Below, piece by piece: positions 38,766-50,712 of a stretch of 52,776 bases of DNA (the stretch's first letter is position 1; each line of letters begins with the position of its first letter). The stretch lies in the IMG/VR virus record IMGVR_UViG_3300017751_000024, positions 1 through 52,776 of that record. The stretch is one strand, 5' to 3'. The position numbers and the translations under genes are program-made. A model generated the notes under the pieces. That model saw only the letters and a list, made by a program, of their open reading frames with translations, made no database searches and was not told the DNA's origin. The stretch is from a virus. Lineage: Duplodnaviria > Caudoviricetes.

Positions 38766-41700
38766 ATGTCAAACTTTAATTATTCTCCCAGTTTTTCTAA
38801 AAGAAATCAACAAAGCACACCTATTCAACAATATGACTTAAATGATTTAGAAGGAGATAAAGAGTTCCAGGCAGTCTCTGAAAGATTCTTAGGTTCTATT
38901 GGTGAACAAAATGATATCTTTGAGTATTTAAGAGACTCTGATTTTAACCTTACGTCAGCTATGAAAAGATATGCTGACTCTAATAAGTTTACTGAACAAC
39001 AAAAGAAAGACTATCAATACTTAAGAACTATGTTTGATGGTGCAGATATAGGTAGTACAGGACAGTTCCTTGAATTAGTTAAAGACGGAGCAATAGATAT
39101 GGTTACTGACCCTACTCTAATACTAGCTGCTTTGTTTACTCCTTTTACAGGAGGCGGAACATTAGCTACTAGAGCTACAGTAGGTAAAGGAACTGCTCAA
39201 GCTTTGAAGATGTTAGGTCAAGCTAATAAAGGAGCTTTAAATAAAACACAGCTTAAAAAAGCTATTGCTGATGGGTCGCTAGAAGAAGCTGCAAAAGCTG
39301 CAACAAAAGTAGCAGGCGGTATGGGTGCAGTAGAAGCTGGTGGCTGGATGGGTTTACACAACCATGCTAATCAAAATATAGAAATAAATACAGGCTTAAG
39401 AAGAGCTTACTCATCAAAAGAGTTAGTAGGCTCAACTGTTGCTGGTGTTTTACTAGGTGGTGTTGCTGGCTATGGTGGACAAAAGTGGTCTAATTATTCA
39501 AATCCAGTTTTACAAATAAACAATAAACCTAAAGTCTATAGAGACGATAGTATTATAGATAATGTCCGATTAAAGTTTAATCAAGCCTGGGACAATACTG
39601 TAGGTAGAGTTATATTAGGTAATGCTGCTCAACTAAGAACCTTAGAAAAACAAGGAGTAAAGTATGCATCTTACTTCAGAGGTTTATTAGACCATGATTC
39701 TCAGTTAGGTATAGGTAAGAGAAGTAATAAAAAAGTAGAGTGGAGTTTTCCTGAACAATTAAATGCAAGACGAGGCAATTATATGTTCATGGAAGAAGGA
39801 CAGCGAGTAGGATTTTTTAAGACTATAGAGCCTATAGCTCCTGATGGAGTTATGATGCAAGCCGATGAGCTTGCTATTATTAGATTCTTAAGAGGAAATA
39901 AAAAAGCATTACAAGGAAGAAGCAAAGAAACAAAACAAGTAGCTAATGATTTAAGAAAATGGTTTGATGGTATAGCTAGAGATGCTCAAGAAGCAGGTTT
40001 TGGTGATATAAGAATAGAAGATTACTTTCCAAGAGAATGGAATAGACAAGCTATAAAAGATAATAAACCAGAGTTTGTTGCACAGTTATCTAAGGATTTA
40101 AAAATATCCAAAAAAGAAGCAGATGATATTGCAGAGGGTATGTTAAATATTAATAATGAATTATATGCTAGCCATAGCAACTTACTTACTCACGGTAGAA
40201 AATTAAAATTAGATGACAATGCTTATGAAAAATATCTAACTAATGAATTAATACCTGTTAGTGCTAGTTATGGTTTAAACGCTGCTAATACAATACAAAC
40301 TAAACTAAGCTTTTTAGGCGGTGCTAAATCTAATGTAAAGGTTGTAAAAAGCAAAGACATAGAAGGTAATGAAGTATTAACATTTCAAAGCTTAAGACAA
40401 AATAATATAGATGATTTTATAAGAACTCACGTAGACCCTTTAGATGAAGACGTGTTCAAAACTTTAGGTAGACGTTTAACAGCTACAGAAAGAAAAGACA
40501 TGATAGAATCTTTCAAGTCTGTTACAGGTGCGGTAAACTTTTTTGAAGGGCAAATAAAACAAGGAGTATATGATGGCCTCAAGCTTGCTAATGCTATGGC
40601 TTACCTACCTTTAGCTACTGTCTCTTCTTTCTCAGAAGGTTTGATAGCAGCTTCTAGAATATCAGGAAAGCAATCTGTAAAAAACTTTCAGTACCAACTA
40701 GAAAATGGTATGCAATTTTTAACATCGGATTTAAAAAGTTTGTTAAAAGAAAGGAGAGGCCTATCAGAAGTTGTAGCTAACAGAGAAGCTAATAGAGTTT
40801 ACTTAGCTGTAGATGACGTGCAAGCAGATTTAACAAATAGATTAGCTGGTGATGGATTACAAAACGCAAGTCTACAAAAAGGAGCTAGAGTATTTTACAA
40901 AGCCAACTTACTATTACCTTGGACAAAGACTATTGAGCTTGCAGCTTTTAATACAGGTAGAGATATAGTTGAAGAATCATTAATTCAGTTAAGTAAACTA
41001 CAAAAAGCTGGAGTAAAAATCTTTGATGATGTTGATACTTTTGTAAACTCAACAACAGGTAAAGATAAAGACATACTTAAACAACTAGATAGTATGGATG
41101 GAGTTTGGGCTGGTAAAGGTAATCTTTATAAAAGAACAAATTATTTAAAAGAACAAATACAAGACATGGGTATAAGTGTCAAAGAAGGATTGGATTGGTT
41201 AGAGTCTGGTGCAAAAAGAAATAATAATTTTTGGACACAAGAGATGTCTAAAGCAGGTGGTAGATTTGCAAGAAGTGTAATCTTACCTACATCTAGAGAA
41301 TTTTCTAAAGTGCCTAGATATATGACTAATCCTAAATGGGATATATTTACACAGTTTTTAAGATACCCTACAGCGTTTAGTAATACTGTATTAAAAAACT
41401 TTGCTAGAGATACTTTAAATAGTCCTGGAATGTCAGCTCCAAGGTTTGCTGCTTTTGTAGCAGGCTCAACAGCTATTGCAAGAGGTACTAATTACTGGAG
41501 AAGTAGTCCAGAACAACAAGCAAAGTATGACCAGTTTGCAAGAAAGCCAGGAACTGATTTAAAAGGTAAAGCTTTCGATGTTTTTGTAGCTAGAAGTGCA
41601 GAAGAAAACCTTAGAGCTTTTCAAAGAGTAGGTTTATTAGGCCCAATAGAATATGGTTTAAGATTTGCAGATGCTTATAGAGCAAATCCAAATCCTTTAG

Positions 41701-42500
41701 TAGCTGTATCAAGTTTAGGTGGCCCTGTTATGGGAGACATTACAGGCTCTACAATCTACAACAGAGGATTGTTTGAAACGTTAGCAAGAAAAACTCCTTT
41801 GATAGGTATTAGACATCCACTTAAAAAATACACAGGCTTTGACCCCTTTGAACCAATCATTGAAGGCGGTAGATTTATAGACGAAGAAGCTAGATACCAA
41901 CTACAACAAGGTATTGAAGATGTACTACCACCAAGAGTAGGTTATAAGAAAGGTGGGATTGTAAAAGAAACATTTAAAGAAATGGGACGTATGCAATATA
42001 ACACAGGAAGTCTTGTAATAAATGATAAAACTATTGATAAAGAAACAAGAATAAGATTTGATAATATAGATAATGATTTAAAAAACTTAGGATATGGTAA
42101 AGTTGCTAGAGCAGCTATTCTTGGTAATATCCATGTAGAGACAGGTGGTACTTACGACCATCAACAAAAACAAGACAAGGGTAATGGTTATGGTCTTTAT
42201 CAATTTGATTTTCAAAAAAAATATTATATGGAAAATGAAGATAGCTATTTGACATCAAACAAGTTTGAAGATACCCCCATGAATCAAACTATGTTTATGC
42301 ATGAAAGTATAAATCAATTAGCACCAGGAAAACACACAGTAGATAAAAATAAAATAAGCCAGTTGCAAAGAGATTTACAGGGTGATGATGTAGCAAGAGC
42401 AGCTATTTCATTTTCTGAAAATTATCTACAGCCTGGAACACCACATATAGATAGAAGAAGAGATGCATCCAGAACTATATTTAAAGTATTAGGAGATTAG
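38766..42500 (+). CDS. Large internal virion protein with C-terminal phage-tail-lysozyme-like domain
   Basis: EDYFPR and QFLRYP motifs of large ejection proteins; C-terminal AAILGNIHVETGG...GYGLYQF...F.ENYLQPG.PH..RR. Confidence 0.78.
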   Translation: MSNFNYSPSFSKRNQQSTPIQQYDLNDLEGDKEFQAVSERFLGSIGEQNDIFEYLRDSDFNLTSAMKRYADSNKFTEQQKKDYQYLRTMFDGADIGSTGQFLELVKDGAIDMVTDPTLILAALFTPFTGGGTLATRATVGKGTAQALKMLGQANKGALNKTQLKKAIADGSLEEAAKAATKVAGGMGAVEAGGWMGLHNHANQNIEINTGLRRAYSSKELVGSTVAGVLLGGVAGYGGQKWSNYSNPVLQINNKPKVYRDDSIIDNVRLKFNQAWDNTVGRVILGNAAQLRTLEKQGVKYASYFRGLLDHDSQLGIGKRSNKKVEWSFPEQLNARRGNYMFMEEGQRVGFFKTIEPIAPDGVMMQADELAIIRFLRGNKKALQGRSKETKQVANDLRKWFDGIARDAQEAGFGDIRIEDYFPREWNRQAIKDNKPEFVAQLSKDLKISKKEADDIAEGMLNINNELYASHSNLLTHGRKLKLDDNAYEKYLTNELIPVSASYGLNAANTIQTKLSFLGGAKSNVKVVKSKDIEGNEVLTFQSLRQNNIDDFIRTHVDPLDEDVFKTLGRRLTATERKDMIESFKSVTGAVNFFEGQIKQGVYDGLKLANAMAYLPLATVSSFSEGLIAASRISGKQSVKNFQYQLENGMQFLTSDLKSLLKERRGLSEVVANREANRVYLAVDDVQADLTNRLAGDGLQNASLQKGARVFYKANLLLPWTKTIELAAFNTGRDIVEESLIQLSKLQKAGVKIFDDVDTFVNSTTGKDKDILKQLDSMDGVWAGKGNLYKRTNYLKEQIQDMGISVKEGLDWLESGAKRNNNFWTQEMSKAGGRFARSVILPTSREFSKVPRYMTNPKWDIFTQFLRYPTAFSNTVLKNFARDTLNSPGMSAPRFAAFVAGSTAIARGTNYWRSSPEQQAKYDQFARKPGTDLKGKAFDVFVARSAEENLRAFQRVGLLGPIEYGLRFADAYRANPNPLVAVSSLGGPVMGDITGSTIYNRGLFETLARKTPLIGIRHPLKKYTGFDPFEPIIEGGRFIDEEARYQLQQGIEDVLPPRVGYKKGGIVKETFKEMGRMQYNTGSLVINDKTIDKETRIRFDNIDNDLKNLGYGKVARAAILGNIHVETGGTYDHQQKQDKGNGYGLYQFDFQKKYYMENEDSYLTSNKFEDTPMNQTMFMHESINQLAPGKHTVDKNKISQLQRDLQGDDVARAAISFSENYLQPGTPHIDRRRDASRTIFKVLGD

Positions 42501-42501
42501 A

Positions 42502-42945
42502 TTGGGATTTCCGTTTGAAATAATTACTATGCTTGCATCTACAGTCCTAGGTGGACTAATGAGTGTATGGGCTGAAAGTAGAAAAGCTAAAGCAGAGCAA
42601 CAAAAGCTACTCATTACACGTGGGGAGTTTGAGATGAAGGCTAGAAAGCAATCACTTGACCACGGCTTGAAGGATAAAGGTTTTGCATGGACAAGAAGAA
42701 TCATAGCATTAACATCAGTCTTTGCTATTGTTTTATTACCTAAACTTGTAGCTGTATATTATCCAGATGTATCAGTAACTGTTGGATATACAAATTGGAA
42801 TCCAGGTTTTTGGTTCTTTAAAGAAGGCAGGGATATTTTTGAATGGATAACTTTTCAAGGTTTAGTAATTACACAATTAGATACTAACTTAGTATCAGCT
42901 ATTATAGGTATGTACTTTGGTGGCAGTTTAGTGAAAGGTAAATAA
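42502..42945 (+). CDS. Holin-like membrane protein
   Basis: Up to three hydrophobic segments, WTRR.IAL and IIG.YFG; TTG start after AGGAG. Confidence 0.55.
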   Translation: MGFPFEIITMLASTVLGGLMSVWAESRKAKAEQQKLLITRGEFEMKARKQSLDHGLKDKGFAWTRRIIALTSVFAIVLLPKLVAVYYPDVSVTVGYTNWNPGFWFFKEGRDIFEWITFQGLVITQLDTNLVSAIIGMYFGGSLVKGK

Positions 42946-43232
42946 TGGACACTAGAGACTTTATGACTGTCTTGGAAACTGTAGGTATTCCTGCTGCTTT
43001 TGCATGTGCTGCTGGGTGGATGGTATATAAATTATTTAATGCTTTGATAGCAGACGTACATAAAAAATTAGATACGCAACACGGTATGATAGTTGCATTG
43101 ATAGATAGAGTAAGACAAATGGACAATGACATGATACGAATAGACTCAATGGTAAGAACTGCTATGGGTGTACAAGTAGATGTCGATAGATTAGCGAGAG
43201 CAGATGGAAAGAAAGACCAAAGGAAAGATTAA
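42945..43232 (+). CDS. Single-TM coiled-coil membrane protein
   Basis: VGIPAAFACAAGWMVYKL helix; coupled. Confidence 0.65.
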   Translation: MDTRDFMTVLETVGIPAAFACAAGWMVYKLFNALIADVHKKLDTQHGMIVALIDRVRQMDNDMIRIDSMVRTAMGVQVDVDRLARADGKKDQRKD

Positions 43233-43722
43233 ACTTATCCCAACATTTAAAAGTAAGAAGGCTGAAAGAAACTGCGAGTTCTGTATGTTCTTTTGGTCTA
43301 TATTAGTTGTGTTTTGGTCTCTTAATAGTATTGCAGATGAAATGGTACATAAGTTTAAGAACCCATCATTTAGTGGTATAGGTACATCAGCACATTATTT
43401 AACTATAGAGAACCAAGAGTTTACTAGAAAGATGAGTATAAAAGAAGAACTCAAAGCTCTACAAGAACAAATAGAAAGAGATAAGGAGAACACAACATTA
43501 GCTAGATTTATCAGGAATTTAGAATCTAGAATATATGCACAACTATCTAGACAATTAGTAGAAAATTTATTCGGAGAAAATCCTAGCACAAATGGCATAC
43601 TAACTTTAGAAGGTAATACTATAGAATACAGTATAGAAGACGGAATAATAACACTAACTATAACAGCAAGCGATGGAACACAAACAACTATTCAGTTGCC
43701 TATTGGTGATTTTTCTTTTTAG
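43204..43722 (+). CDS. csgF: Curli assembly protein CsgF-like (start may be ATG 43285)
   Basis: Signal peptide, then F.NPSFSG...IENQ, ESRIYAQLSRQL..NLFG and C-terminal G..T.I.LP; adjacent to csgG. Confidence 0.85.
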   Translation: MERKTKGKIKLIPTFKSKKAERNCEFCMFFWSILVVFWSLNSIADEMVHKFKNPSFSGIGTSAHYLTIENQEFTRKMSIKEELKALQEQIERDKENTTLARFIRNLESRIYAQLSRQLVENLFGENPSTNGILTLEGNTIEYSIEDGIITLTITASDGTQTTIQLPIGDFSF

Positions 43723-44482
43723 TGGATGTGCAGTATTAAGTAAGAATGACGACTTAGTTCTATCGAAAAAAATACAGCCTTCAACCATATTAGAAATACA
43801 ATCAGATGAGCTATTTAAAATGCCTGGTGCTAAACAACAACCAGTTGTTGCGGTATACCCTAATAGTTTTAAAGATTTAACAGGGCAAAGAAGAAGTAAT
43901 AGTTCTTTTGCTTTATTTAGTACAGCTATAACACAAGCTCCAGAAGCAATATTGATAAGGGCTTTGAAGCATACATCAGATGGTAAGTTCTTTAAAGTAG
44001 TAGAACGTGTTGGACTTGATGACCTTACAAAAGAAAGACAATTAATTAGGACAACTCGTAAAGAGTTTAAAGAAGATGCAAAATTACAGCCTTTGCTTTT
44101 TGCAGGGCTTATGTTCCAGGGAGGTGTAATCTCGTATGAGGCTAACCTACAATCTGGAGGTGCTGGTGCTAGATACCTAGGAATAGGTAACAGTAAACAG
44201 TATAGAGAAGATACTGTAATTATTTCACTACGATTAGTTTCAGTATCTACAGGTGAAGTGTTAGTAGAGACATCAGTTTCTAAAAGCATTTTATCTACAA
44301 GTGTTTCTCAGGACGTGTTTCGTTTTATAGAAGCTGGCACAGAGCTGGTGGAAATAGAAGGAGGAGTAGCTGAGAACGAATCTATCGCTATTGCTTTAAC
44401 AAAAGCAGTAGAGACAGGTGTACTAAATATAATAAAAATAGGAATAGGGAGAGGCTATTGGGAATATGAAGAATCTAATTAG
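43673..44482 (+). CDS. csgG: Curli secretion pore CsgG-like lipoprotein
   Basis: Lipobox FSGC; F.DLTGQR, STA.TQ, VVER.GLD.L.KERQ.IR, LLFAG, GG.GARYLGIG..KQYR.D, SLRLVSV.TGEV. Confidence 0.93.
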   Translation: MEHKQLFSCLLVIFLFSGCAVLSKNDDLVLSKKIQPSTILEIQSDELFKMPGAKQQPVVAVYPNSFKDLTGQRRSNSSFALFSTAITQAPEAILIRALKHTSDGKFFKVVERVGLDDLTKERQLIRTTRKEFKEDAKLQPLLFAGLMFQGGVISYEANLQSGGAGARYLGIGNSKQYREDTVIISLRLVSVSTGEVLVETSVSKSILSTSVSQDVFRFIEAGTELVEIEGGVAENESIAIALTKAVETGVLNIIKIGIGRGYWEYEESN

Positions 44483-45173
44483 TATATTAGTTATGTTGTC
44501 GCTAAGTGCATTAGCAGATAATGAAATATATATTGACCAATCAGGCGATACCGCCAATATTGATTTAGAACAACTAGGAGGAGATAGTAACATCATTGCT
44601 GGGTTAGAAAGCACAGCAGGAAATTTAACACCGTTAGATTTAGATGGAGACAGTCTTACTCTAGACATAAATCAAATAGGTGGTTCTAATACTTTTCTAG
44701 GAGATATTTGGGCTGACAATTTTACAGGCTATTTTAATTTTGATGGAAGCAGTAATGATTTCACAATTCAAGTAGACCCAAGTAACACTTATGGTGCAGA
44801 CAGTTCAGATGTTAACATTGACGTGTCAGGTAGTAGTAATGATTTTACGCTAGACTTAGCTACAACAGCTATGGCTAGTAATACAGACCTTGACTGGATT
44901 GTAAATGGCGATGGAAACGTATTTGATTTTGATATTAATTATGATGGAGCTACAAACTATGTAGACGTTGACGGTGATTCAAACACAGTTAACTTTGAAG
45001 GTAGTGGTTATGCTGGTGGGTATTTTTACCTAGACCAGACAGGCGACTCACGGACTTTTGACATCCAACAATTAAGCACATTAAATAATGATTGGCTCAA
45101 AATTATATCCAATGGTTCTAATGGCAGCGTGTGTATTATCCAAGACGATAATGGCACAGCCGTTGGATGCTAG
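44466..45173 (+). CDS. Secreted curlin-like beta-solenoid protein
   Basis: Signal peptide ending ALA; repeated Q/D-x-G-x-x-N units (NEIYIDQSGD, LEQLGGDSN, INQIGGSN, LDQTGDS); next to csgG. Confidence 0.65.
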   Translation: MKNLISILVMLSLSALADNEIYIDQSGDTANIDLEQLGGDSNIIAGLESTAGNLTPLDLDGDSLTLDINQIGGSNTFLGDIWADNFTGYFNFDGSSNDFTIQVDPSNTYGADSSDVNIDVSGSSNDFTLDLATTAMASNTDLDWIVNGDGNVFDFDINYDGATNYVDVDGDSNTVNFEGSGYAGGYFYLDQTGDSRTFDIQQLSTLNNDWLKIISNGSNGSVCIIQDDNGTAVGC

Positions 45174-46197
45174 CATTGGCAACATAACCGAACTTAACGG
45201 AACAGGCAGGATTGTAAGGGATAAACCTTATGATGCTGCCTTATCTTTTAATATAGAAAGCTTTGACAATGTACAAACTTCAGAAGGTCGGATAGGGATT
45301 ACATTCCTAGACGAAAGCCAAGTTAGGCTAACAGAACATTCTGAACTTATTATAGACGAGTTTATCTATGACCCTGACCCATCTAAATCTAAGATGGCTT
45401 TACAGTTTGCTAGTGGTACTGCAAGATTTATCACAGGAAAACTAGCGACAATCAATAAAGAAAATATTTTTATAGAAACCCCAAGTGCTACTATTGGTAT
45501 TCGTGGTACAGACTTTACTGTTACTATAGATGAACTTGGAAGGTCTCTTATTATTTTATTACCTGATGAAAATGGTTTACCAAGTGGAGAGATAGTAGTA
45601 GCTACGGCTATGGGTGAGGTGGTTTTAAATCAACCTTATCAAGCTACATCAGTATCTACATTTGAAAGCAAGCCTGCAAAGCCTGTAGTGTTAGACATAA
45701 CTACAGAGCTAATAGATAACATGTTAATAGTTAGCCCACCACAGGAAGAGTTTAATGTTAATGAAGAAAATGTATCGGACAATAGTAGTAATATACTTGA
45801 TGTGGATTATCTGGAGTTTGACGACCTAGATATAGATTTATTAAAAGATGATAGCTTGGAATTTACAGAGCTAGATATAAATTATCTAGATGTAAATTTC
45901 TTAGAAGACTTGCTAGATATAATAGAAGAAGTAAACGAGCTAGATGAAACAGAAAGTTTACTGAGAACAGATGTAAATTTAAAAGGTACACAGGTGGGGT
46001 TCGACCCTAATACTCAGATAAATACTTTTATTACAGACCGACAGATAAGTTTACTTAGAAGTGTAGAGCATACAGTAAAAATAGATTTAGATAAATCAGG
46101 AGCTTATACCGTTATACTAATACAAGAAGGTAAGAGTACACAGCTTATAGTAAATGGTGGTGGGGATTCTGTTATAAAAATTAAACAGAGTAACTAA
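45088..46197 (+). CDS. FecR-domain periplasmic protein (start possibly 45112 or 45121)
   Basis: IG.I.EL.G, D.VQT..G...I.F.D.S...L.EHS.L.IDEF, TPSATIGIRGTDF. Confidence 0.85.
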   Translation: MIGSKLYPMVLMAACVLSKTIMAQPLDASIGNITELNGTGRIVRDKPYDAALSFNIESFDNVQTSEGRIGITFLDESQVRLTEHSELIIDEFIYDPDPSKSKMALQFASGTARFITGKLATINKENIFIETPSATIGIRGTDFTVTIDELGRSLIILLPDENGLPSGEIVVATAMGEVVLNQPYQATSVSTFESKPAKPVVLDITTELIDNMLIVSPPQEEFNVNEENVSDNSSNILDVDYLEFDDLDIDLLKDDSLEFTELDINYLDVNFLEDLLDIIEEVNELDETESLLRTDVNLKGTQVGFDPNTQINTFITDRQISLLRSVEHTVKIDLDKSGAYTVILIQEGKSTQLIVNGGGDSVIKIKQSN

Positions 46198-47927
46198 TGA
46201 AGTGGGCTAGTTTATTAATAGGATTATTAGCTCTTCCTTTATTATTTAATGTAGCTCCGTTAGAAACATTAAGACTTAAAACATTTGACAGGCTAGTAAA
46301 TACACCTGAGCCTACAGGATATTTTACAATACTAAATATAACTGAAGAGTATATAGATAGTCAGGGTGGTTATCCATTACCTAGAGAAACACTAGCAGAT
46401 ATCCATGTAAAGCTTTTACAAGAAGGAGCAATAGGAGTAGGGTGGACTATGTTATTCCCTCATCCTGATAGGTTAGGCGGAGATGAAAAGTTTGCTAAAG
46501 CCTTATCATTTTCTCCTAGTATACTTGCAATGCCTGAAGTACCTAATAGTATATATCCTAAAACACATGGTACAGTCATCCGAGGGCCAGAAGTAAATCT
46601 ACCAAAAGCTCAAGGATTCTTACAGAACATAGACATACTTAAAAATAATTCTAGCCAGGGAGCTGTGTCTGCTCCTGTTGATGTAGACAATCTTGTTAGG
46701 CAAATACCTTTAATGCAACAAACACCTAATGGGTGGGTCGCATCTTTTGGGACTGAAGTATTAAAAGTATTAGGTGGCGGTAGTACGTATCAAATTATTA
46801 CCAACGAGAATGGTATAGAGATGGTGAGAGTCAAAGGACTAGACCCTATACCTACTGATAGCTATGGACGTAAATGGATTAGTTGGGTAGATACACCACA
46901 GACTACACTAGATAATTTAAATGTAGCAGGTAAGTTTGTCTTTGTAGGTTTTACAGCTAAAGGTATAACAAGTCAGCTAGCAACTCCTGTTGGATTACTT
47001 GAGCCTCACAAAATTCAGGCAGCTCTTGCCGAGTCAATATTATTAAATACACCACAGATACCAGACTACAGATTGTTTGTAGAGCTACTATTATTATGTG
47101 TCTCTGGTCTTCTTATAGCTCTTGTAATACATTCTTTTGGTATGACACTATCAATGGTATTAGCTGGTGGTTTGTTTGCTTCAGTAGGTTATCTTGGATA
47201 TTACTTTGTATCTATTGGTTATCTTATAGATGTCACATGGAGTATGACGAGTATGATACTTTTGTCTTTACAACAATTCTATTTAAGATTTAGACAGCAG
47301 TATAGATTAAGACAACAAATAAGAAAACAGTTTGAACATTACCTTGACCCAAGACAAGTTGCCAGGCTACAAAAAAATCCAGGGCTTTTAAAATTAGGTG
47401 GTGAAAGAAAAAGATGTACGATTATGTTTACAGATGTCAGAGGCTTTACAAGTCTATCAGAAAAGTTAGAGCCTGAAGAAGTTATAAAAATTATGAACAA
47501 AGCCTTGACTGTACAAGCTGATGCTGTTCAAAGGAATGGAGGGATGGTAGACAAATATATAGGGGATGCAATGATGGCTGTATGGAATGCTCCATTAGAT
47601 GTAGACAATCAAGAACAGTTAGCTATTGAGACAGCTCTTCAAATACAACACGACATGCAAGAAGCAGAGTTAGAAGTTGAAATTGGTATAGGAATAAATA
47701 CAGAAATAGTTTGTGTAGGTAATATGGGGTCAGCTTCCAGGTTTGAATATAGCTGTTTAGGTGATGCTGTAAATTTAGCTGCTCGTTTGGAGTCTTCATG
47801 TAAGTCTGTTGGTAAAAATTTAGTCATAGGTGAGGAGACAATTAATAATTATCAGGGTGAATATACAGAATTAGAACCTATTTTTGTAAAAGGTAAAGAA
47901 AAAGAGGTCAAAATCTACACAATATAG
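46197..47927 (+). CDS. CHASE2-domain class III adenylyl cyclase
   Basis: TM-CHASE2 (YPLPR, FPHPDR.GGD..F, DVDNLVR.IPL)-3TM-cyclase (FTDVRGFT, DKYIGDA, GNMGS..RFEYS.LGD.VNLAARLE). Confidence 0.93.
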   Translation: MKWASLLIGLLALPLLFNVAPLETLRLKTFDRLVNTPEPTGYFTILNITEEYIDSQGGYPLPRETLADIHVKLLQEGAIGVGWTMLFPHPDRLGGDEKFAKALSFSPSILAMPEVPNSIYPKTHGTVIRGPEVNLPKAQGFLQNIDILKNNSSQGAVSAPVDVDNLVRQIPLMQQTPNGWVASFGTEVLKVLGGGSTYQIITNENGIEMVRVKGLDPIPTDSYGRKWISWVDTPQTTLDNLNVAGKFVFVGFTAKGITSQLATPVGLLEPHKIQAALAESILLNTPQIPDYRLFVELLLLCVSGLLIALVIHSFGMTLSMVLAGGLFASVGYLGYYFVSIGYLIDVTWSMTSMILLSLQQFYLRFRQQYRLRQQIRKQFEHYLDPRQVARLQKNPGLLKLGGERKRCTIMFTDVRGFTSLSEKLEPEEVIKIMNKALTVQADAVQRNGGMVDKYIGDAMMAVWNAPLDVDNQEQLAIETALQIQHDMQEAELEVEIGIGINTEIVCVGNMGSASRFEYSCLGDAVNLAARLESSCKSVGKNLVIGEETINNYQGEYTELEPIFVKGKEKEVKIYTI

Positions 47928-48044
47928 TGTAAATGCTCTCTCGCTTACGGAGAAGCTCTCTAACGAATTTTATGTTTTTCTATACCTAAGACATTACTTA
48001 CATGCTAATCGTCCAGCACAGGACATCCTATGAGGTCGTTTTTC

Positions 48045-48269
48045 TTATAAAGCTTGAATTTCACGTTGTAAGTAAACATGTAATGGTTCAAGCTTAGCTT
48101 TTGCTCTTTGAAGCAAAACTCTGATGATATGTCTATCCATTTCTGAAAATACTACATCAACTTCATCAACTGGAAACTCAGATATCTCTGAGACTATTTT
48201 ACCTTCTGGTGTAAGTAGCACCGAAAAACTTATTAGGTTGCCCTCACTCTTTTGTTTTTTCCTTTTCAT
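48045..48269 (-). CDS. Hypothetical protein
   Basis: 74 aa, AAGGA SD; last gene of the minus arm. Confidence 0.65.
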   Translation of the reverse strand: MKRKKQKSEGNLISFSVLLTPEGKIVSEISEFPVDEVDVVFSEMDRHIIRVLLQRAKAKLEPLHVYLQREIQAL

Positions 48270-48696
48270 TTCTTTTCCTTAATTCAGTAGTGCTAAATCT
48301 GTGTCCCCTCTTGTTATAATATATTTCTATTCCTCTTTCTTTACATAAACCTCTGCCAGTAAATACAGAGTTTCTATATTCCTCTCCTATAATTCTTACA
48401 TCTATAGGAAAGGTATATAAAATATCTTCTAGCTCATCCTCTCTATGGTAAACAATAATATCATCTACCCACTTTATTCCTTTTAATTGTATTTGTCTTT
48501 CTACAATACTTTGTAAAGGTTTATTCTTTTCTGGTCTATCTGTAGAAGGGTCAGTCTGTAATGCTACAATTAGATAGTCACATATTGTCCTGGCTTCTTC
48601 TAACATAGTAACATGTCCTGCATGTAATAAGTCAAAAGCTCCGCAAGTAATACCTACTTTAGACTTAAGTCCTAGTATGTCATACTTTCTACTCAT
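48244..48696 (-). CDS. Cytidylyltransferase (TagD/glycerol-3-phosphate CTase-like)
   Basis: GAFDLLHAGH HIGH motif, YLIVALQTD, R.H.FSTT.LR. Confidence 0.88.
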   Translation of the reverse strand: MSRKYDILGLKSKVGITCGAFDLLHAGHVTMLEEARTICDYLIVALQTDPSTDRPEKNKPLQSIVERQIQLKGIKWVDDIIVYHREDELEDILYTFPIDVRIIGEEYRNSVFTGRGLCKERGIEIYYNKRGHRFSTTELRKRNEKEKTKE

Positions 48697-49667
48697 TCAG
48701 ATAAATCTGCAAAAGTAATATTATTATGGCTACCTCTTAGTCCTGCTTTCATATATGTGGTAGCTCTACCCTCAAAGAAGTTTTGGTGTTCTACACCCAT
48801 GACTTCATCTAACCAGGGTAAAGGATTTTCTTTTTGATTGTAATTAGGTTTTAATCCTAACTGTAATAATCTTCTATCAGCTATGTATCTATTGTAAGCA
48901 TACATATCTTCTTTAGTAAGTCCTGGTAAGTCTCCCATATCAAATACTAAATCAAGGAACTTGTCTTCAAGCTTTACCATCTCTCTACATATTTGATATA
49001 TTTCTTTTTTAAATTCATCAGTCCATATATTTAAATTTTCTTGTATAAACTCTCTAAACAATTTAGTCATAGCTTCAACATGCATTGACTCATCACGTAT
49101 AGAGTAGGTAACTATCTGTCCCATGCCTTTCATTTTACCGAACCTTGGAAAGTTTAGTAAGATTGCAAAGCTACTAAATAATTGTAGGCCTTCTGTAAAG
49201 GCTGAGTAAACTGCTAAAGTTTTAGCTATAGTTTTCTTATCAGACTTTAGTGGTTTAAAGTTACCAACGTAATCATGCTTGTCAGCCATCTGTTCATACT
49301 CTGCAAAAGCTTTGTACTCTATCTCAGGCATTCCAACTGTATCTAGTAACAAGCTGTAAGCATCTTGATGTATTGACTCCATGTTTGCAAACGATGACAT
49401 CATCATCCTTGCTTCTGGTTTTTTAAATATAGGCATGTATTTATCTACATAACCTGCACCTACATCCACATCTGATTGTGTAAACAATCTAAATATTTGA
49501 GTAAGTAAATACTTTTCTTGTTCTGTAACGTCCTGCCAGTCTTTTACATCATTGTGTAAAGGAACTGACTCAGGCATCCAATGCATTTGATTTTGTAGTT
49601 TGTAATAATCATACATCCACGGATATTCAAATGGTTTGTAGTAGTCTCTGTCAGTTAATAGTGCCAT
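48693..49667 (-). CDS. nrdB: Ribonucleotide reductase class I beta subunit
   Basis: YKPF.YPW, FTQSD, E.IH..AY, TEG.QLFSSF, RDESMH, NFFE. Start revised to ATG 49667 after an AAGGAG SD. Confidence 0.95.
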   Translation of the reverse strand: MALLTDRDYYKPFEYPWMYDYYKLQNQMHWMPESVPLHNDVKDWQDVTEQEKYLLTQIFRLFTQSDVDVGAGYVDKYMPIFKKPEARMMMSSFANMESIHQDAYSLLLDTVGMPEIEYKAFAEYEQMADKHDYVGNFKPLKSDKKTIAKTLAVYSAFTEGLQLFSSFAILLNFPRFGKMKGMGQIVTYSIRDESMHVEAMTKLFREFIQENLNIWTDEFKKEIYQICREMVKLEDKFLDLVFDMGDLPGLTKEDMYAYNRYIADRRLLQLGLKPNYNQKENPLPWLDEVMGVEHQNFFEGRATTYMKAGLRGSHNNITFADLSE

Positions 49668-49818
49668 GTTTATTCTCCTTATATCGTTTATCTGGTGTAC
49701 CATCTTTCTTAAGACGTACCCTTTTTATTTTTTGTTTTTCTCCTAAGCCTACCATCTTCATTATCTTAGGTAATCTAGCAGACTTCATTAGTTTGTGTAA
49801 GTACCTACCGAACTGCAT
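49651..49818 (-). CDS. Small basic protein with KKDGTPDKRY motif (55 aa)
   Basis: Not in track. MQFGRYLHKLMKSARLPKIMK...LKKDGTPDKRYKEN; GAGGA SD; fills the fkbM-nrdB gap. Confidence 0.55.
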   Translation of the reverse strand: MQFGRYLHKLMKSARLPKIMKMVGLGEKQKIKRVRLKKDGTPDKRYKENKHGTIN

Positions 49819-50371
49819 ATATATCCTCACCCTCTGTCCATGTTAGATAACCTAGACTTTGTAATATACCTACAGCTTTAATATCATCAATATGTTTATG
49901 CTCCATCTTTATGAACGTAGGCTTAATGTCCCAAGTGTAATCTTCCATGATATTCATTTCATGTCCTTCAACATCTAACTTTAAAAAGTCTATAGTCGTA
50001 ATTGCATTATCATAAAGAATAGTATCTAATCTTTTACAAGGAACTTCTATAATCTTATCTAGATATTCTTCTTTACTCCAAGACTCATACTCAAATATCC
50101 TACCGCCTTTGTGGTTGTCAGACATAATAGATGACATACCTCTAATACTTGCATCAGGATAGTCTTGTTTGGCTACACCTAATTGTATTGTGCCGTCATA
50201 GTCAGATACAGCACATTGTAAAGTTATTACGTTAGGATAGTCTTCCATTGCTTTGTTCATATTTTTAAAAGCTACTGGGTTAGGCTCTACCATAATTCCT
50301 TGCCATCCGTTATCAGCTAACTTTTGACAAGTATCAAAATCACACGTTCCAATTTCTATAAATGTTTTCAT
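49805..50371 (-). CDS. FkbM-family SAM-dependent methyltransferase
   Basis: FIEIG, GW.G..VEP, AVSD, IDFLKLDVEGHE. Confidence 0.88.
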   Translation of the reverse strand: MKTFIEIGTCDFDTCQKLADNGWQGIMVEPNPVAFKNMNKAMEDYPNVITLQCAVSDYDGTIQLGVAKQDYPDASIRGMSSIMSDNHKGGRIFEYESWSKEEYLDKIIEVPCKRLDTILYDNAITTIDFLKLDVEGHEMNIMEDYTWDIKPTFIKMEHKHIDDIKAVGILQSLGYLTWTEGEDIYAVR

Positions 50372-50712
50372 TTTTTCCTCATATTCTTATGTAGTTTAAT
50401 AAAAAATTCTGCATCAATAACTACTAATGGTTTATGTCTATTCTTTTTTATTACAACTAGGGGTTCATACTTCCCACAGTTTACCGATGCTTGTTCGTAG
50501 GATGTCCAGACATTAACTCGTTCTTGATTTTTACATTCAACCGAGTAAGGAAAATTCTTCCTTGCAGCTCTTGCCATAATAAGGTCTTCACCAGAAGAAC
50601 CCATAGGGCGACTTTCAATATCTTCAACATGTATCTTTAACTCTTTAATAAGCTTGTCTCGAGTCCACTTCTGTAGATTTCTACCTTTTGCTTTTGCTGA
50701 TTGTGTCTTCAT
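50368..50712 (-). CDS. Holliday-junction-resolvase-like PD-(D/E)XK nuclease
   Basis: SAKAKGR, GEDL, SVECKN, PLVV. Confidence 0.7.
   Translation of the reverse strand: MKTQSAKAKGRNLQKWTRDKLIKELKIHVEDIESRPMGSSGEDLIMARAARKNFPYSVECKNQERVNVWTSYEQASVNCGKYEPLVVIKKNRHKPLVVIDAEFFIKLHKNMRKK

What the first reader, a model, noticed from the sequence alone, without database searches (positions are those of the whole stretch)
43204..47927. Five-gene trans-envelope module: CsgF-CsgG pore, curlin-like protein, FecR protein and CHASE2 adenylyl cyclase
Seen: five overlapping or coupled genes whose products span outside/outer membrane (curlin-like, CsgF, CsgG), periplasm (FecR domain) and inner membrane/cytoplasm (CHASE2-cyclase). 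No csgE, csgC or csgD is present. Established: CsgG/F form the type VIII secretion channel; csgF/csgG pairs have been reported in marine T4-like myophages; FecR domains relay outer-membrane signals; CHASE2 cyclases are receptor cyclases. Inference: rather than making biofilm curli, this may be a phage-installed surface sensor that converts an external event (superinfecting phage, contact, nutrient) into cAMP in the infected cell. The full chain in a 52-kb podovirus is unusual.
Basis: partly seen in the sequence, partly recalled or inferred. Interest (0 to 1): 0.85.

Follow-up and report, generated by a model that had tools for sequence, protein, structure and literature searches.

The report
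Known pelagiphage curli-plus-cyclase gene module
A tightly packed gene cassette in a marine SAR11-type phage joins a curli-style outer-membrane pore and fibre protein to a periplasmic FecR-domain protein and a membrane receptor adenylate cyclase; it is real and very common in the ocean, but it was already described in 2022 and its function is still untested.

Summary
Five overlapping + strand genes at 43204-47927 encode CsgF, CsgG, a weakly curlin-like repeat protein, a secreted FecR-domain protein and a CHASE2 class III cyclase with its catalytic residues in place. A sixth gene, p95 (42945-43232), travels with them.

The module is not new or unusual. It is annotated in the myophages HTVC008M and Melnitz. 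PMC9599517 (2022) describes it, FecR and cyclase included, in podovirus pelagiphages. In IMG/VR, 366 contigs carry a close CsgG relative. All 41 fetched loci with room on both sides hold all six genes in the same order.

Bacterial CsgF-CsgG-curlin loci lack FecR and the cyclase (0 of 20). The nearest bacterial CHASE2-cyclases lack CsgG (0 of 80). Instead, 29 of 80 sit beside FecR-domain proteins, often giant repeat proteins, and 19 of 80 sit beside an ABC exporter plus HlyD pair. The FecR domain folds like the periplasmic signalling domain of PupR.

Novelty: already known. Interest: modest.

The parts
42945..43232 (+). p95: a 95-aa protein with a moderately hydrophobic N-terminal segment, a helical middle and a charged C-terminal tail. 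It is the sixth conserved member of the module and is probably the gene that PMC9599517 labels 'histidine kinase'.
   Evidence: phrog_18771, E = 1.5e-22. No Pfam or NCBIfam family. Present upstream of csgF in 76 of 76 IMG/VR loci with room and in both myophages. Among 50,697 phage records it is found only in the 6 that also carry CsgG, at two places in each. At 95 aa with no HisKA or HATPase match, it is not a kinase by any test run here.
43204..43722 (+). CsgF homologue (the type VIII secretion accessory protein that caps CsgG)
   Evidence: Pfam CsgF, E = 8.4e-18. A profile of phage and bacterial CsgF finds E. coli CsgF of the CsgG:CsgF complexes 6l7a, 6lqh and 6si7 at E = 5.6e-13. The motif just after the signal peptide aligns. 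The first 27 residues may lie upstream of the true start.
43673..44482 (+). CsgG homologue (outer-membrane lipoprotein secretion pore)
   Evidence: Pfam CsgG, E = 2.4e-47. It aligns over residues 9-266 with E. coli CsgG (3x2r, 6l7a; E = 8e-43), and the lipobox Cys aligns. The residues before the conserved FSTA stretch of the constriction loop differ from E. coli.
44466..45173 (+). Secreted D/N/G/S/T-rich repeat protein, probably a divergent curlin-type subunit
   Evidence: Signal-peptide-like N-terminus; composition D 14.5%, N 10.6%, G 11.1%, S 10.2%. Curlin_rpt E = 9.7 (not significant); the Melnitz gene in the same position scores 26 bits against a cut-off of 20.7. NCBIfam CsgB E = 1.1e-4, below its cut-off. 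The viral family profile hits true Curlin_rpt proteins beside bacterial CsgF/CsgG in 2 of 20 loci. The AF2 model is all-beta with repeating strand pairs but has pLDDT 64. Foldseek finds no hit at E < 0.1 and no CsgA.
45088..46197 (+). Secreted FecR-domain protein: signal peptide, FecR beta-domain (about residues 28-200), acidic linker (residues 216-300, 33% D+E) and a small C-terminal region
   Evidence: Pfam FecR, E = 1.3e-10. In the AF2 model residues 28-200 have pLDDT 75-88 and the rest is low. Foldseek matches the PupR C-terminal cell-surface-signalling domain 6ovk_R at E = 4.8e-5, TM 0.51 and rmsd 3.1 A, and the putative anti-sigma factor 4m0n at E = 4.3e-5. There is no anti-sigma domain and no membrane-spanning segment beyond the signal peptide.
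46197..47927 (+). Receptor cyclase: N-terminal hydrophobic segment, CHASE2 domain (12-305), hydrophobic block from residue 290, class III cyclase domain (405-575)
   Evidence: Pfam CHASE2, E = 2.3e-28, and Guanylate_cyc, E = 9.8e-21. The best solved relatives are class III adenylate cyclases: 6fht E = 5.7e-31 and CyaB 3r5g E = 8.7e-22. D413, K453, D457 and R530 are invariant in 6 phage and 20 phage-plus-bacterial sequences, and N526 in the 20. Position 519 is Ser.
42502..42945 (+). p147: a 147-aa membrane protein; a variable neighbour, not a core member
   Evidence: phrog_38283, E = 1.5e-8. One hydrophobic segment at 61-88. Present in 16 of 41 loci that hold the whole module. Absent from the two myophage loci.

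Best explanation
This is the pelagiphage 'viral curli / type VIII secretion' module already described in the literature, here in a complete 52.8-kb podovirus related to Pelagibacter phages HTVC115P and HTVC103P. It is a phage-made join of two units that are separate in bacteria. Unit 1 is csgF-csgG plus a curlin-type subunit. CsgG forms an outer-membrane pore capped by CsgF, through which the Sec-exported repeat protein is most likely secreted and laid down on the surface of an infected cell that has no curli genes of its own. Unit 2 is a secreted FecR-domain protein plus a CHASE2 class III adenylate cyclase, a periplasm-to-cytoplasm signalling pair. The FecR domain would act as a protein-binding adaptor in the periplasm. 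The CHASE2 domain would read it. The cytoplasmic domain would then make cAMP, which only a host receptor could read. My reading is that the phage couples the state of the exported surface structure, or of the envelope, to cAMP in the infected cell. Shown here: the gene identities, the intact cyclase catalytic positions, the fold of the FecR domain, strict co-travel of six genes in the phage loci examined, and separate origins of the two units in bacteria. Inferred: secretion of the repeat protein through CsgG, FecR-CHASE2 contact, cAMP as the product, the direction of signalling, and any benefit to the phage.
For: Identity: Pfam and PDB matches. The same gene order is annotated in HTVC008M and Melnitz. 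PMC9599517 describes HK-CsgF-CsgG-CsgA/B-FecR-(CsgA/B)-AC in 9 podovirus genomes (passages). Co-travel: of the 80 IMG/VR loci fetched (best of 366 relatives), curlin-like is present in 69 of 69, FecR in 59 of 59, cyclase in 44 of 44, CsgF in 78 of 78 and p95 in 76 of 76 loci with room. All six are colinear in 41 of 41 loci with room on both sides. Two origins: CsgG, CsgF, curlin-like and p95 are found in 0 of 80 bacterial loci anchored on the nearest CHASE2-cyclases. FecR and the cyclase are found in 0 of 20 bacterial CsgG loci, 7 of which have the adjacent CsgF-CsgG pair. FecR-CHASE2 partnership: a FecR-profile hit lies within 10 kb in 29 of 80 cyclase loci, and within 300 bp in 12 of those 29, against 0 of 20 control loci (Fisher p = 6e-4). 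On S. meliloti pSymB a FecR+TPR gene overlaps the start of a CHASE2-cyclase gene. In Burkholderia a periplasmic LysM-FecR gene precedes a CHASE2 histidine kinase gene in a biofilm-control operon (PMC5192318 passages). Link to secretion: 19 of 80 cyclase loci have an ABC exporter plus HlyD pair against 0 of 20 controls. The FecR proteins sampled carry cadherin-like/Big_9, RTX, FG-GAP or TPR repeats. One HlyD is fused to a cNMP-binding domain. The FecR fold matches the PupR periplasmic signalling domain. Cyclase competence: D413, K453, D457, N526, R530 and K565/K567 are present. Precedent: outer-membrane NsrA to CHASE2 cyclases to cAMP to Clr; deleting CHASE2 from CyaD1 gives constitutive cAMP (passages).
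Against: No bacterial locus in my samples joins the two units, so their functional coupling rests only on conserved synteny in phages, which co-transfer of a block would also produce. [quoted passage not shown] The curlin assignment is weak for this protein. Melnitz cultures showed no clumping in cytograms or TEM (PMC9004378 passage). [quoted passage not shown] No cNMP-binding domain is found in 5 phage records, and I could not check the host. The bacterial counts come from stop-to-stop ORFs and home-made profiles in high-GC genomes. Three of the query ORFs come from the searched set. The control set is small (20 loci).
Confidence: 0.45

Rival explanations
1. Fibre-only reading (PMC9599517, PMC7029224). 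The module exists to build curli-like fibres that aggregate cells ('sibling capture') or shield the infected cell from other phages. FecR and the cyclase only regulate expression or secretion and do not sense the fibre or the outside.
For: CsgF, CsgG and a curlin-type gene are the conserved core. The myophages add a second Curlin_rpt gene, at 33.1 and 21.8 bits. One bacterial cousin has a cNMP-binding HlyD, which fits cAMP acting on secretion. The hypotheses are stated in passages of PMC9599517 and PMC7029224.
Against: No clumping was seen in Melnitz cultures. CsgE is absent from 0 of 5 records searched. CHASE2 is an extracytoplasmic sensor domain, so some periplasmic input is expected. No transcription factor of the CsgD type and no cNMP receptor is encoded in the phages.
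Confidence: 0.22
2. Pore reading. CsgG/CsgF serve as an open or gated outer-membrane channel. It would either time lysis (pinholin or secretin-like, PMC9004378) or import cofactors and nutrients (PMC9599517, PMC7029224). The repeat protein is not a fibre.
For: There is no CsgE gate. In the window the module follows the 1244-aa late-operon ORF and two small membrane proteins on the same strand, with no strong terminator between them. p95's nearest named Atlas clusters are holin-like, at a score of 0.86, which is a lead only.
Against: This reading does not explain why a Sec-exported repeat protein, a FecR protein and a receptor cyclase are kept in 41 of 41 loci. In the myophages the module lies elsewhere, between replication and baseplate genes. 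p95 is module-specific and is not a general lysis gene of these phages.
Confidence: 0.12
3. Independent takeover enzyme. The cyclase raises cAMP to reprogram host metabolism regardless of the upstream genes. Co-location reflects transfer of one block between phage families.
For: The bacterial units are separate (0 of 80, 0 of 20). PMC9599517 reports that AC is not always present. 51 of 80 bacterial cousins show no FecR hit within 10 kb.
Against: The FecR stop overlaps the cyclase start by 1 nt. The pair is kept in both myo- and podoviruses at 33-40% identity. FecR genes are enriched beside CHASE2-cyclases in bacteria.
Confidence: 0.12
4. The cyclase makes a pyrimidine or other cyclic nucleotide and is related to Pycsar defence cyclases, for example acting as a decoy or counter-defence.
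For: PADLOC PycC profiles hit the cyclase domain; the best is E = 3.3e-28 at 96.9 bits.
Against: PycC shares the class III fold, so a cross-hit is expected. The window enzyme has Lys453 and Ser519 at the two base-specifying positions, which is the adenylate type by my recalled knowledge of class III cyclases. There is no Pycsar effector and no cNMP-binding protein. The CHASE2 architecture matches the Sinorhizobium AC/GCs.
Confidence: 0.03

Closest known systems
Pelagiphage viral T8SS/curli module (PMC9599517, mSystems 2022; earlier PMC7029224 and the HTVC008M and Melnitz annotations)
   Same: Same genes in the same order: small upstream gene(s), CsgF, CsgG, curlin-type gene, FecR, cyclase. Same virus type (podovirus pelagiphage relatives). 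No CsgE.
   Different: The window lacks the second curlin-repeat gene between FecR and the cyclase that both myophages carry; here the FecR stop overlaps the cyclase start. The 'histidine kinase' and 'iron-dependent regulator' labels are not reproduced by my Pfam or NCBIfam scans.
E. coli curli system (CsgA/B, CsgE/F/G, CsgD)
   Same: CsgG aligns end to end, lipobox included. CsgF shares the N-terminal motif seen in the pore complexes. One secreted repeat protein has weak CsgB/CsgA similarity.
   Different: There is no CsgE, no separate nucleator gene, no CsgD-type regulator, and extra FecR and cyclase genes. The subunit fails the Curlin_rpt threshold.
Sinorhizobium meliloti NsrA - CyaD1/CyaD2/CyaK - Clr pathway
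   Same: CHASE2 plus class III cyclase architecture. The cyclase domain is 44% identical to a pSymB CHASE2-cyclase. An outer-membrane protein is needed upstream of the cyclases, and the output is cAMP. A FecR-domain gene sits directly upstream on pSymB, and one is in the Clr regulon.
   Different: The outer-membrane partner is a beta-barrel, NsrA, not CsgG. The signal is a plant protein. The FecR protein SMc02177 was not needed for signal perception. That the pSymB gene is CyaK is my recollection and was not verified.
Bacterial units of FecR-domain repeat protein, type I secretion genes and CHASE2-cyclase
   Same: The nearest relatives of the phage cyclase (28-34% identity, full length). A FecR domain with the shared IDxFVYDPD and TPSAtiGIRGT motifs. 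The association with an export system for a surface repeat protein.
   Different: The export route is type I (ABC plus HlyD), not CsgG. The FecR domain is fused to cadherin-like, RTX, FG-GAP or TPR repeats in proteins of 900-2100 aa, not to a short acidic tail.
Burkholderia BiofilmReg operon (PMC5192318)
   Same: A periplasmic FecR-domain protein is encoded directly upstream of a CHASE2 membrane sensor. The operon is linked to biofilm formation.
   Different: The output is a histidine kinase with a response regulator, not a cyclase. The FecR protein carries LysM. There is no secretion pore in the operon.
FecR/PupR cell-surface-signalling anti-sigma regulators
   Same: The fold of the periplasmic domain.
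   Different: There is no cytoplasmic anti-sigma domain, no membrane anchor, no ECF sigma factor and no TonB-dependent transducer in the module. Nothing ties it to iron.

Membership tests
Pelagiphage viral T8SS module (PMC9599517) | Conserved order: small upstream gene(s) - CsgF - CsgG - curlin-type - FecR - (second curlin) - adenylate cyclase | tested here: met
   Window ORFs. Identical order in 41 of 41 IMG/VR loci with room on both sides and in HTVC008M and Melnitz. The optional second curlin gene is absent from the window.
Pelagiphage viral T8SS module (PMC9599517) | Carried by a pelagiphage-type podovirus or myovirus | tested here: met
   Nearest cultured relatives are Pelagibacter podophages HTVC115P and HTVC103P (portal 78% and 76% nt; capsid 59% and 51% aa). 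G000 is a complete virus record with terminal repeats. The host of this phage is not known. Assignment to the HTVC023P type itself was not tested.
Curli / type VIII secretion system | CsgG outer-membrane lipoprotein pore | tested here: met
   Pfam 161.4 bits. Aligned over residues 9-266 with E. coli CsgG, including the lipobox Cys.
Curli / type VIII secretion system | CsgF with the N-terminal segment that inserts into CsgG | tested here: met
   Pfam 65.2 bits. The profile hits CsgF of 6l7a, 6lqh and 6si7 at E = 5.6e-13 with the N-terminal motif aligned. Actual binding was not tested.
Curli / type VIII secretion system | Secreted subunit made of curlin repeats (Pfam Curlin_rpt) | tested here: inconclusive
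   Window protein: Curlin_rpt E = 9.7; CsgB E = 1.1e-4 and CsgA E = 4.8e-3, below their cut-offs. The Melnitz counterpart passes at 26 bits. The family profile hits true curlin proteins in 2 of 20 bacterial CsgG loci. The fold model has low confidence and gives no CsgA hit.
Curli / type VIII secretion system | CsgE periplasmic gate/adaptor | tested here: not met
   PF10627 found in 0 of 5 phage records; the control rings in E. coli.
Curli / type VIII secretion system | Extracellular amyloid fibre is formed | not testable with these tools
   Needs EM or amyloid dye binding on infected or expressing cells.
Class III adenylate cyclase | Two metal-binding Asp, adenine-specifying Lys plus Asp/Thr/Ser, transition-state Asn and Arg, and a terminal Lys | tested here: met
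   D413, D457, K453, S519, N526, R530 and K565/K567 are seen in alignments to CyaB 3r5g and 6fht and are conserved across phage and bacterial relatives. The roles of these positions are recalled from the class III literature, not computed here.
Class III adenylate cyclase | Product is cAMP | not testable with these tools
   Needs an enzyme assay.
CHASE2 membrane receptor | CHASE2 domain between an N-terminal membrane segment and a block of membrane segments, with the output domain in the cytoplasm | tested here: met
   Pfam CHASE2 over residues 12-305 at 99.9 bits. Hydrophobic segments at 1-25 and from 290. The number of helices in the second block was not resolved.
FecR/PupR anti-sigma cell-surface signalling regulator | Periplasmic FecR-type domain | tested here: met
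   Pfam FecR 42 bits. Foldseek 6ovk_R at E = 4.8e-5, TM 0.51.
FecR/PupR anti-sigma cell-surface signalling regulator | N-terminal cytoplasmic anti-sigma domain, a single membrane span, and a partner ECF sigma factor and TonB-dependent transducer | tested here: not met
   The only domain found is FecR, after a signal-peptide-like helix. No such partners are among the module genes. It should not be called an iron regulator.
Pycsar defence system | PycC cyclase plus an adjacent cNMP-binding effector | tested here: not met
   PycC profiles hit the cyclase fold, but there is no effector. cNMP_binding is found in 0 of 5 phage records, and the other six module proteins have no PADLOC hit.
Histidine kinase (label used for the upstream genes in PMC9599517) | HisKA/DHp and HATPase domains | tested here: not met
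   p95 (95 aa) and p147 (147 aa) have no Pfam or NCBIfam match at E <= 0.1. I could not see how the paper derived the label; its supplements are closed.

The most novel reading that the evidence does not exclude
FecR-domain proteins and CHASE2 sensors may form a general, so far undescribed 'exported surface protein to second messenger' unit. In Alphaproteobacteria the FecR domain is the N-terminal, periplasm-retained end of type-I-secreted giant adhesins, and it reports their state to a CHASE2 cyclase. Pelagiphages have rewired this unit onto a CsgG/CsgF pore. The FecR protein's long acidic linker would pass through, or dock under, the pore. The infected SAR11 cell would then gain a physically continuous tether from a surface fibre to a cAMP-producing enzyme, working as a phage-installed contact or superinfection sensor.
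Probability: 0.2. Interest if true: 0.75.

Novelty: already known. Interest (0 to 1): 0.35.

Why it matters
The module is one of the most widespread auxiliary gene sets of phages that infect the ocean's most abundant bacteria. PMC9599517 reports viral curli proteins at all 65 GOV2.0 stations. Here I found 366 IMG/VR contigs with a close CsgG relative and 3175 database proteins related to the repeat protein. It gives a host with no curli genes a new envelope structure and a receptor cyclase, and nobody has shown what it does. That points to a concrete test (does the FecR domain control the CHASE2 cyclase?), and it argues against the 'iron regulator' and 'histidine kinase' labels in the literature. 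Two cultured systems exist in which to test it: HTVC008M on HTCC1062 and Melnitz on H5P1.

Tried and rejected
1. FecR C-terminus as a curlin repeat. By eye the last 30 residues looked curlin-like. A profile-profile comparison of the FecR family (A4) with the curlin-like family (A2) gave probability 0.2% and E = 0.29, so I dropped the idea.

2. Fold test of the curlin-like protein. The AF2 model had pLDDT 64.4 and pTM 0.64. Foldseek against the PDB gave 0 hits at E <= 0.001 and a best E of 0.13. The list is dominated by parallel beta-helix proteins and does not include CsgA. The model's confidence is too low for this to count either way.

3. Complex prediction of the CHASE2 periplasmic part (residues 22-290, alignment A3) with the FecR domain (residues 24-215, alignment A4) returned no verdict: score 0.00 against a mark of 0.32, and the controls were not run. 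This is not evidence for or against binding.

4. The look-up of sequencing runs, kind rna, for window 38500-48400: no RNA holder was listed.

5. Sequence search of the PDB with CsgF alone and with the curlin-like protein alone gave no hit at E <= 1 and E <= 10 respectively. The CsgF profile then worked.

6. A promoter/terminator scan of 38000-48600 found fewer promoter-like sites than in shuffles (22 against 39.3 +/- 6.1) and no convincing terminator inside or just after the module. It says nothing firm about transcription units.

7. The protein Atlas search for p95 returned only viral clusters. The holin-like and YvrJ neighbours scored 0.86-0.89, which is a lead only.

8. SAR11 cAMP receptors. 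A paper search gave nothing usable from its listing, and I had no way to pick out a Pelagibacter genome among the unnamed handles. The host side of cAMP signalling was therefore not examined.

9. The identity of the pSymB CHASE2-cyclase as CyaK is recalled. The plasmid record carries no annotation in the collection, so this is unverified.

Supplementary files of PMC9599517 (Fig. S3, Data Set S1) were not available. They may list the genomes, the basis of the 'HK' label and the expression data.

Papers. For PMC9599517, PMC9004378, PMC7029224, PMC5192318, PMC5498481, PMC7529298 and PMC13001267 I saw search listings and the passages returned by 'find', not the whole texts. Garnerone et al. 2018 (NsrA) I saw only as a reference entry. 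The roles of class III cyclase residues, the retention modules of type I adhesins (LapA, MpIBP) and the nature of PDB 5ix9 are recalled. My statement that the bacterial FecR-adhesin/T1SS/CHASE2-cyclase arrangement is not in print rests on two searches only, which returned 4 papers for 'CHASE2' plus 'FecR', none describing it.

Full report
**What is there.** The window is a complete 52,776-base virus record with direct terminal repeats. Its nearest cultured relatives are the Pelagibacter podophages HTVC115P and HTVC103P (portal DNA 78% and 76% identical; capsid protein 59% and 51%).

Each overlaps the next, by 50, 17, 86 and 1 nt. Four family calls are solid:
- CsgF, 65.2 bits
- CsgG, 161.4 bits
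- FecR, 42.0 bits
- CHASE2, 99.9 bits, with Guanylate_cyc, 74.6 bits

All are above Pfam's curated cut-offs. CsgG aligns over residues 9-266 with E. coli CsgG, including the lipobox cysteine. A profile of phage and bacterial CsgF finds E. coli CsgF from the solved CsgG:CsgF pore complexes at E = 5.6e-13, and the conserved motif just after the signal peptide aligns. CsgE is absent from all 5 phage records searched, with E. coli ringing as the control.

**The third gene.** 'Curlin-like' is the weakest call. The protein has a signal-peptide-like N-terminus and is rich in D, N, G, S and T. It misses Pfam Curlin_rpt (E = 9.7). Its NCBIfam matches are sub-threshold: CsgB at E = 1.1e-4 and CsgA at E = 4.8e-3.

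Indirect support comes from three results:
- The Melnitz gene in the same position passes Curlin_rpt at 26 bits against a cut-off of 20.7.
- The window protein matches both myophage counterparts by tblastn, at 28-31% identity.
- A profile of the viral family picks out, next to bacterial CsgF-CsgG pairs, ORFs that are true curlin proteins, at 230 and 32.7 bits.

The fold prediction was of low confidence (pLDDT 64). It gave an all-beta repeat model with no significant PDB match and no CsgA among the hits. I call this gene probably a divergent curlin-type subunit.

**The cyclase.** The catalytic domain is closest to solved class III adenylate cyclases: 6fht at E = 5.7e-31 and P. aeruginosa CyaB 3r5g at E = 8.7e-22.

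These positions are all present and are invariant or nearly so across 6 phage and 20 phage-plus-bacterial sequences:
- the two metal-binding aspartates, D413 and D457
- the base-specifying lysine, K453
- N526 and R530
- the C-terminal VKGK

The second specificity position is Ser in the window, and Thr, Ser or Asp in the relatives. From what I recall of class III cyclases, these are adenylate-type residues. The enzyme therefore looks active and most likely makes cAMP, but the product is inferred. PADLOC's Pycsar cyclase profiles hit the same fold. There is no Pycsar effector anywhere in the phage.

**The FecR protein.** It consists of a signal peptide, a confidently modelled beta domain (residues about 28-200, pLDDT 75-88), an acidic linker (33% D+E over residues 216-300) and a poorly modelled C-terminal part.

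The domain matches the periplasmic cell-surface-signalling domain of the anti-sigma regulator PupR. That structure was solved in complex with the signalling domain of its outer-membrane transducer (6ovk, E = 4.8e-5, TM 0.51, rmsd 3.1 A). The protein has no anti-sigma domain and no membrane anchor. It is therefore not a FecR-type regulator of iron uptake; it shares only the protein-binding periplasmic domain.

A weaker match (E = 0.02, 61 columns) is to PDB 5ix9, titled 'cell surface anchoring domain'. I note it as a lead only.

**A sixth member.** The 95-aa ORF at 42945-43232 (phrog_18771) overlaps csgF by 29 nt. It is present in 76 of 76 viral loci with room and in both myophages.

Among 50,697 phage records it occurs only in the six that carry CsgG, at two places in each. 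It is absent from the module-less podophage relatives. [quoted passage not shown] No Pfam or NCBIfam kinase domain is detectable, and 95 residues cannot hold one. Its role is unknown.

**Already known, and common.** HTVC008M and Melnitz carry the same cluster, annotated in part. PMC7029224 (2020) reported the curli cluster in pelagimyophages. PMC9599517 (2022) described the full set, with FecR and adenylate cyclase, in nine HTVC023P-type podovirus genomes. It noted the lack of CsgE, found the genes at all 65 GOV2.0 stations, and argued for transfer between phage families.

In IMG/VR, 366 contigs encode a close CsgG relative. In the 80 loci fetched, every gene is present wherever the contig has room. 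All six genes are colinear in 41 of 41 loci with room on both sides. These 80 are the closest relatives (73-96% CsgG identity), so the count does not contradict the paper's remark that FecR and AC are sometimes missing.

**What bacteria show: two units, not one.** I anchored on the cyclase in genome contigs. They are 28-34% identical over the full length and are mostly Alphaproteobacteria, with SAR86 and a few others.

With profiles built from the viral proteins, none of the 80 loci has CsgG, CsgF, the repeat protein or p95 within 10 kb. What they do have:
- 29 of 80 have a FecR-profile protein. It lies within 300 bp in 12 of the 29, and directly upstream on the same strand in 9.
- 26 of 80 have a type I secretion-type ABC exporter.
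- 23 of 80 have a HlyD-type protein.
- 19 of 80 have both the exporter and HlyD.
- 7 of 80 have a match to a cNMP-binding domain.

Pfam on 18 sampled ORFs shows the FecR domain at the N-terminus of proteins of 900-2100 aa. These carry cadherin-like/Big_9/serralysin-C repeats, RTX repeats, FG-GAP repeats or TPR repeats. One HlyD, immediately upstream of the cyclase in locus L151, is fused to a cNMP-binding domain.

In the reverse direction, CsgG-family genes occur in 52 of 401 sampled genomes of the same class. Around the 20 best, FecR and the cyclase are found in 0 of 20. The 7 best have the adjacent CsgF-CsgG pair. The same 20 loci serve as a rough background for the first scan: 0 of 20 have FecR, ABC exporter, HlyD or cNMP hits (Fisher p = 6e-4 for FecR). 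Five genomes that carry the FecR/cyclase unit have no CsgG match with this query.

Caveats apply to these counts:
- They use stop-to-stop ORFs in high-GC DNA and home-made profiles.
- Three of the query ORFs belong to the searched set.
- An ORF that overlapped the cyclase ORF was skipped.
- The control set is small.

**Literature that fits.** In Burkholderia a periplasmic LysM-FecR gene directly precedes a CHASE2 histidine kinase gene in an operon whose disruption abolishes biofilm (PMC5192318 passages).

[quoted passage not shown] A CyaD1 lacking CHASE2 is constitutively active. A FecR-domain gene, smc02177, is in the Clr regulon but was not needed for signal perception (PMC5498481 passages).

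On pSymB I found a FecR+TPR gene whose stop overlaps the start of a CHASE2-cyclase gene. That cyclase domain is 44% identical to the phage's.

**How it most likely works.** The phage cassette joins a curli-type export unit to a FecR/CHASE2-cyclase signalling pair. In bacteria the relatives of that pair accompany a different export route and other surface repeat proteins. What is constant across these contexts is the pairing of a FecR domain with a CHASE2 sensor.

The simplest reading is that the FecR domain is the periplasmic input to CHASE2, and that the pair reports on, or controls, an exported surface protein. In the infected cell this would link a new surface structure to cAMP.

Every functional step remains inferred. 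The interaction prediction gave no verdict (see Tried and rejected). The two halves have no shared history outside phages. No cAMP receptor is encoded by the phage, and I could not examine the host. The published rivals are not excluded: fibres for aggregation or superinfection defence, a pore for lysis timing or uptake, and an independent takeover cyclase.

**Verdict.** The thing itself is already known. Interest is modest (0.35). The open question of function is a good one, and the bacterial context found here sharpens the experiment to do, but a specialist in marine phages would not be surprised by the locus.

Noticed in passing
L151:5921-12265 and L151:17989-20934 (marine alphaproteobacterial single-cell genome, locus): The arrangement is a C39-peptidase ABC exporter, then a HlyD fused to an N-terminal cNMP-binding domain, then a CHASE2-cyclase, with a FecR+RTX protein of 982 aa nearby. 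It suggests that a cyclic nucleotide acts directly on a type I secretion adaptor.
   Followed up: partly
L213:205-5813 (S. meliloti 1021 pSymB, record 1567228-1572836): A 1219-aa FecR+TPR ORF ends at the start codon of a 649-aa CHASE2-cyclase ORF. The collection's record has no annotation here, so the gene names could not be checked.
   Followed up: partly
window 38766-42500: A 1244-aa ORF lies directly upstream on the same strand. By position it looks like an internal virion or ejection protein, and by eye its C-terminal part looks lysozyme-like. It has no NCBIfam hit. Its identity among module-carrying loci ranges from 23% to 94% while the module stays at 65-98%, so a mosaic boundary lies just upstream of the module.
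   Followed up: no
L038, L041, L060, L061, L062, L069 (IMG/VR loci), between the FecR and cyclase genes: Six of 41 complete loci have an extra 350-500 nt between FecR and the cyclase. That is too short for the second curlin gene of the myophages. Its content was not examined.
   Followed up: no
L001:6639-7964 (HTVC008M): The extra gene between FecR and the cyclase in HTVC008M, annotated as hypothetical, has a PA14 domain (E = 2.7e-6) followed by five Curlin_rpt stretches (33.1 bits). It is a carbohydrate-binding-type domain fused to curlin repeats.
   Followed up: no
window 26001-28000: GC content rises to 0.43 and GC skew to about 0.4 inside the 2080-aa ORF (22605-28847), well above the window's 0.32-0.39.
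   Followed up: no
window 48045-52601, - strand: A convergent - strand block begins 117 nt after the cyclase stop. The 74-aa ORF at 48045-48269 (phrog_27180) travels with the module in many podovirus loci. By eye the next two ORFs look like a cytidylyltransferase-type nucleotidyltransferase and a ribonucleotide reductase small subunit. This was not tested.
   Followed up: no
window 46197-47927: The cyclase domain scores higher against one PADLOC Pycsar cyclase profile (PDLC00734, 96.9 bits) than against Pfam Guanylate_cyc (74.6 bits). I read this as a shared fold, but the product of this cyclase clade has not been measured.
   Followed up: partly
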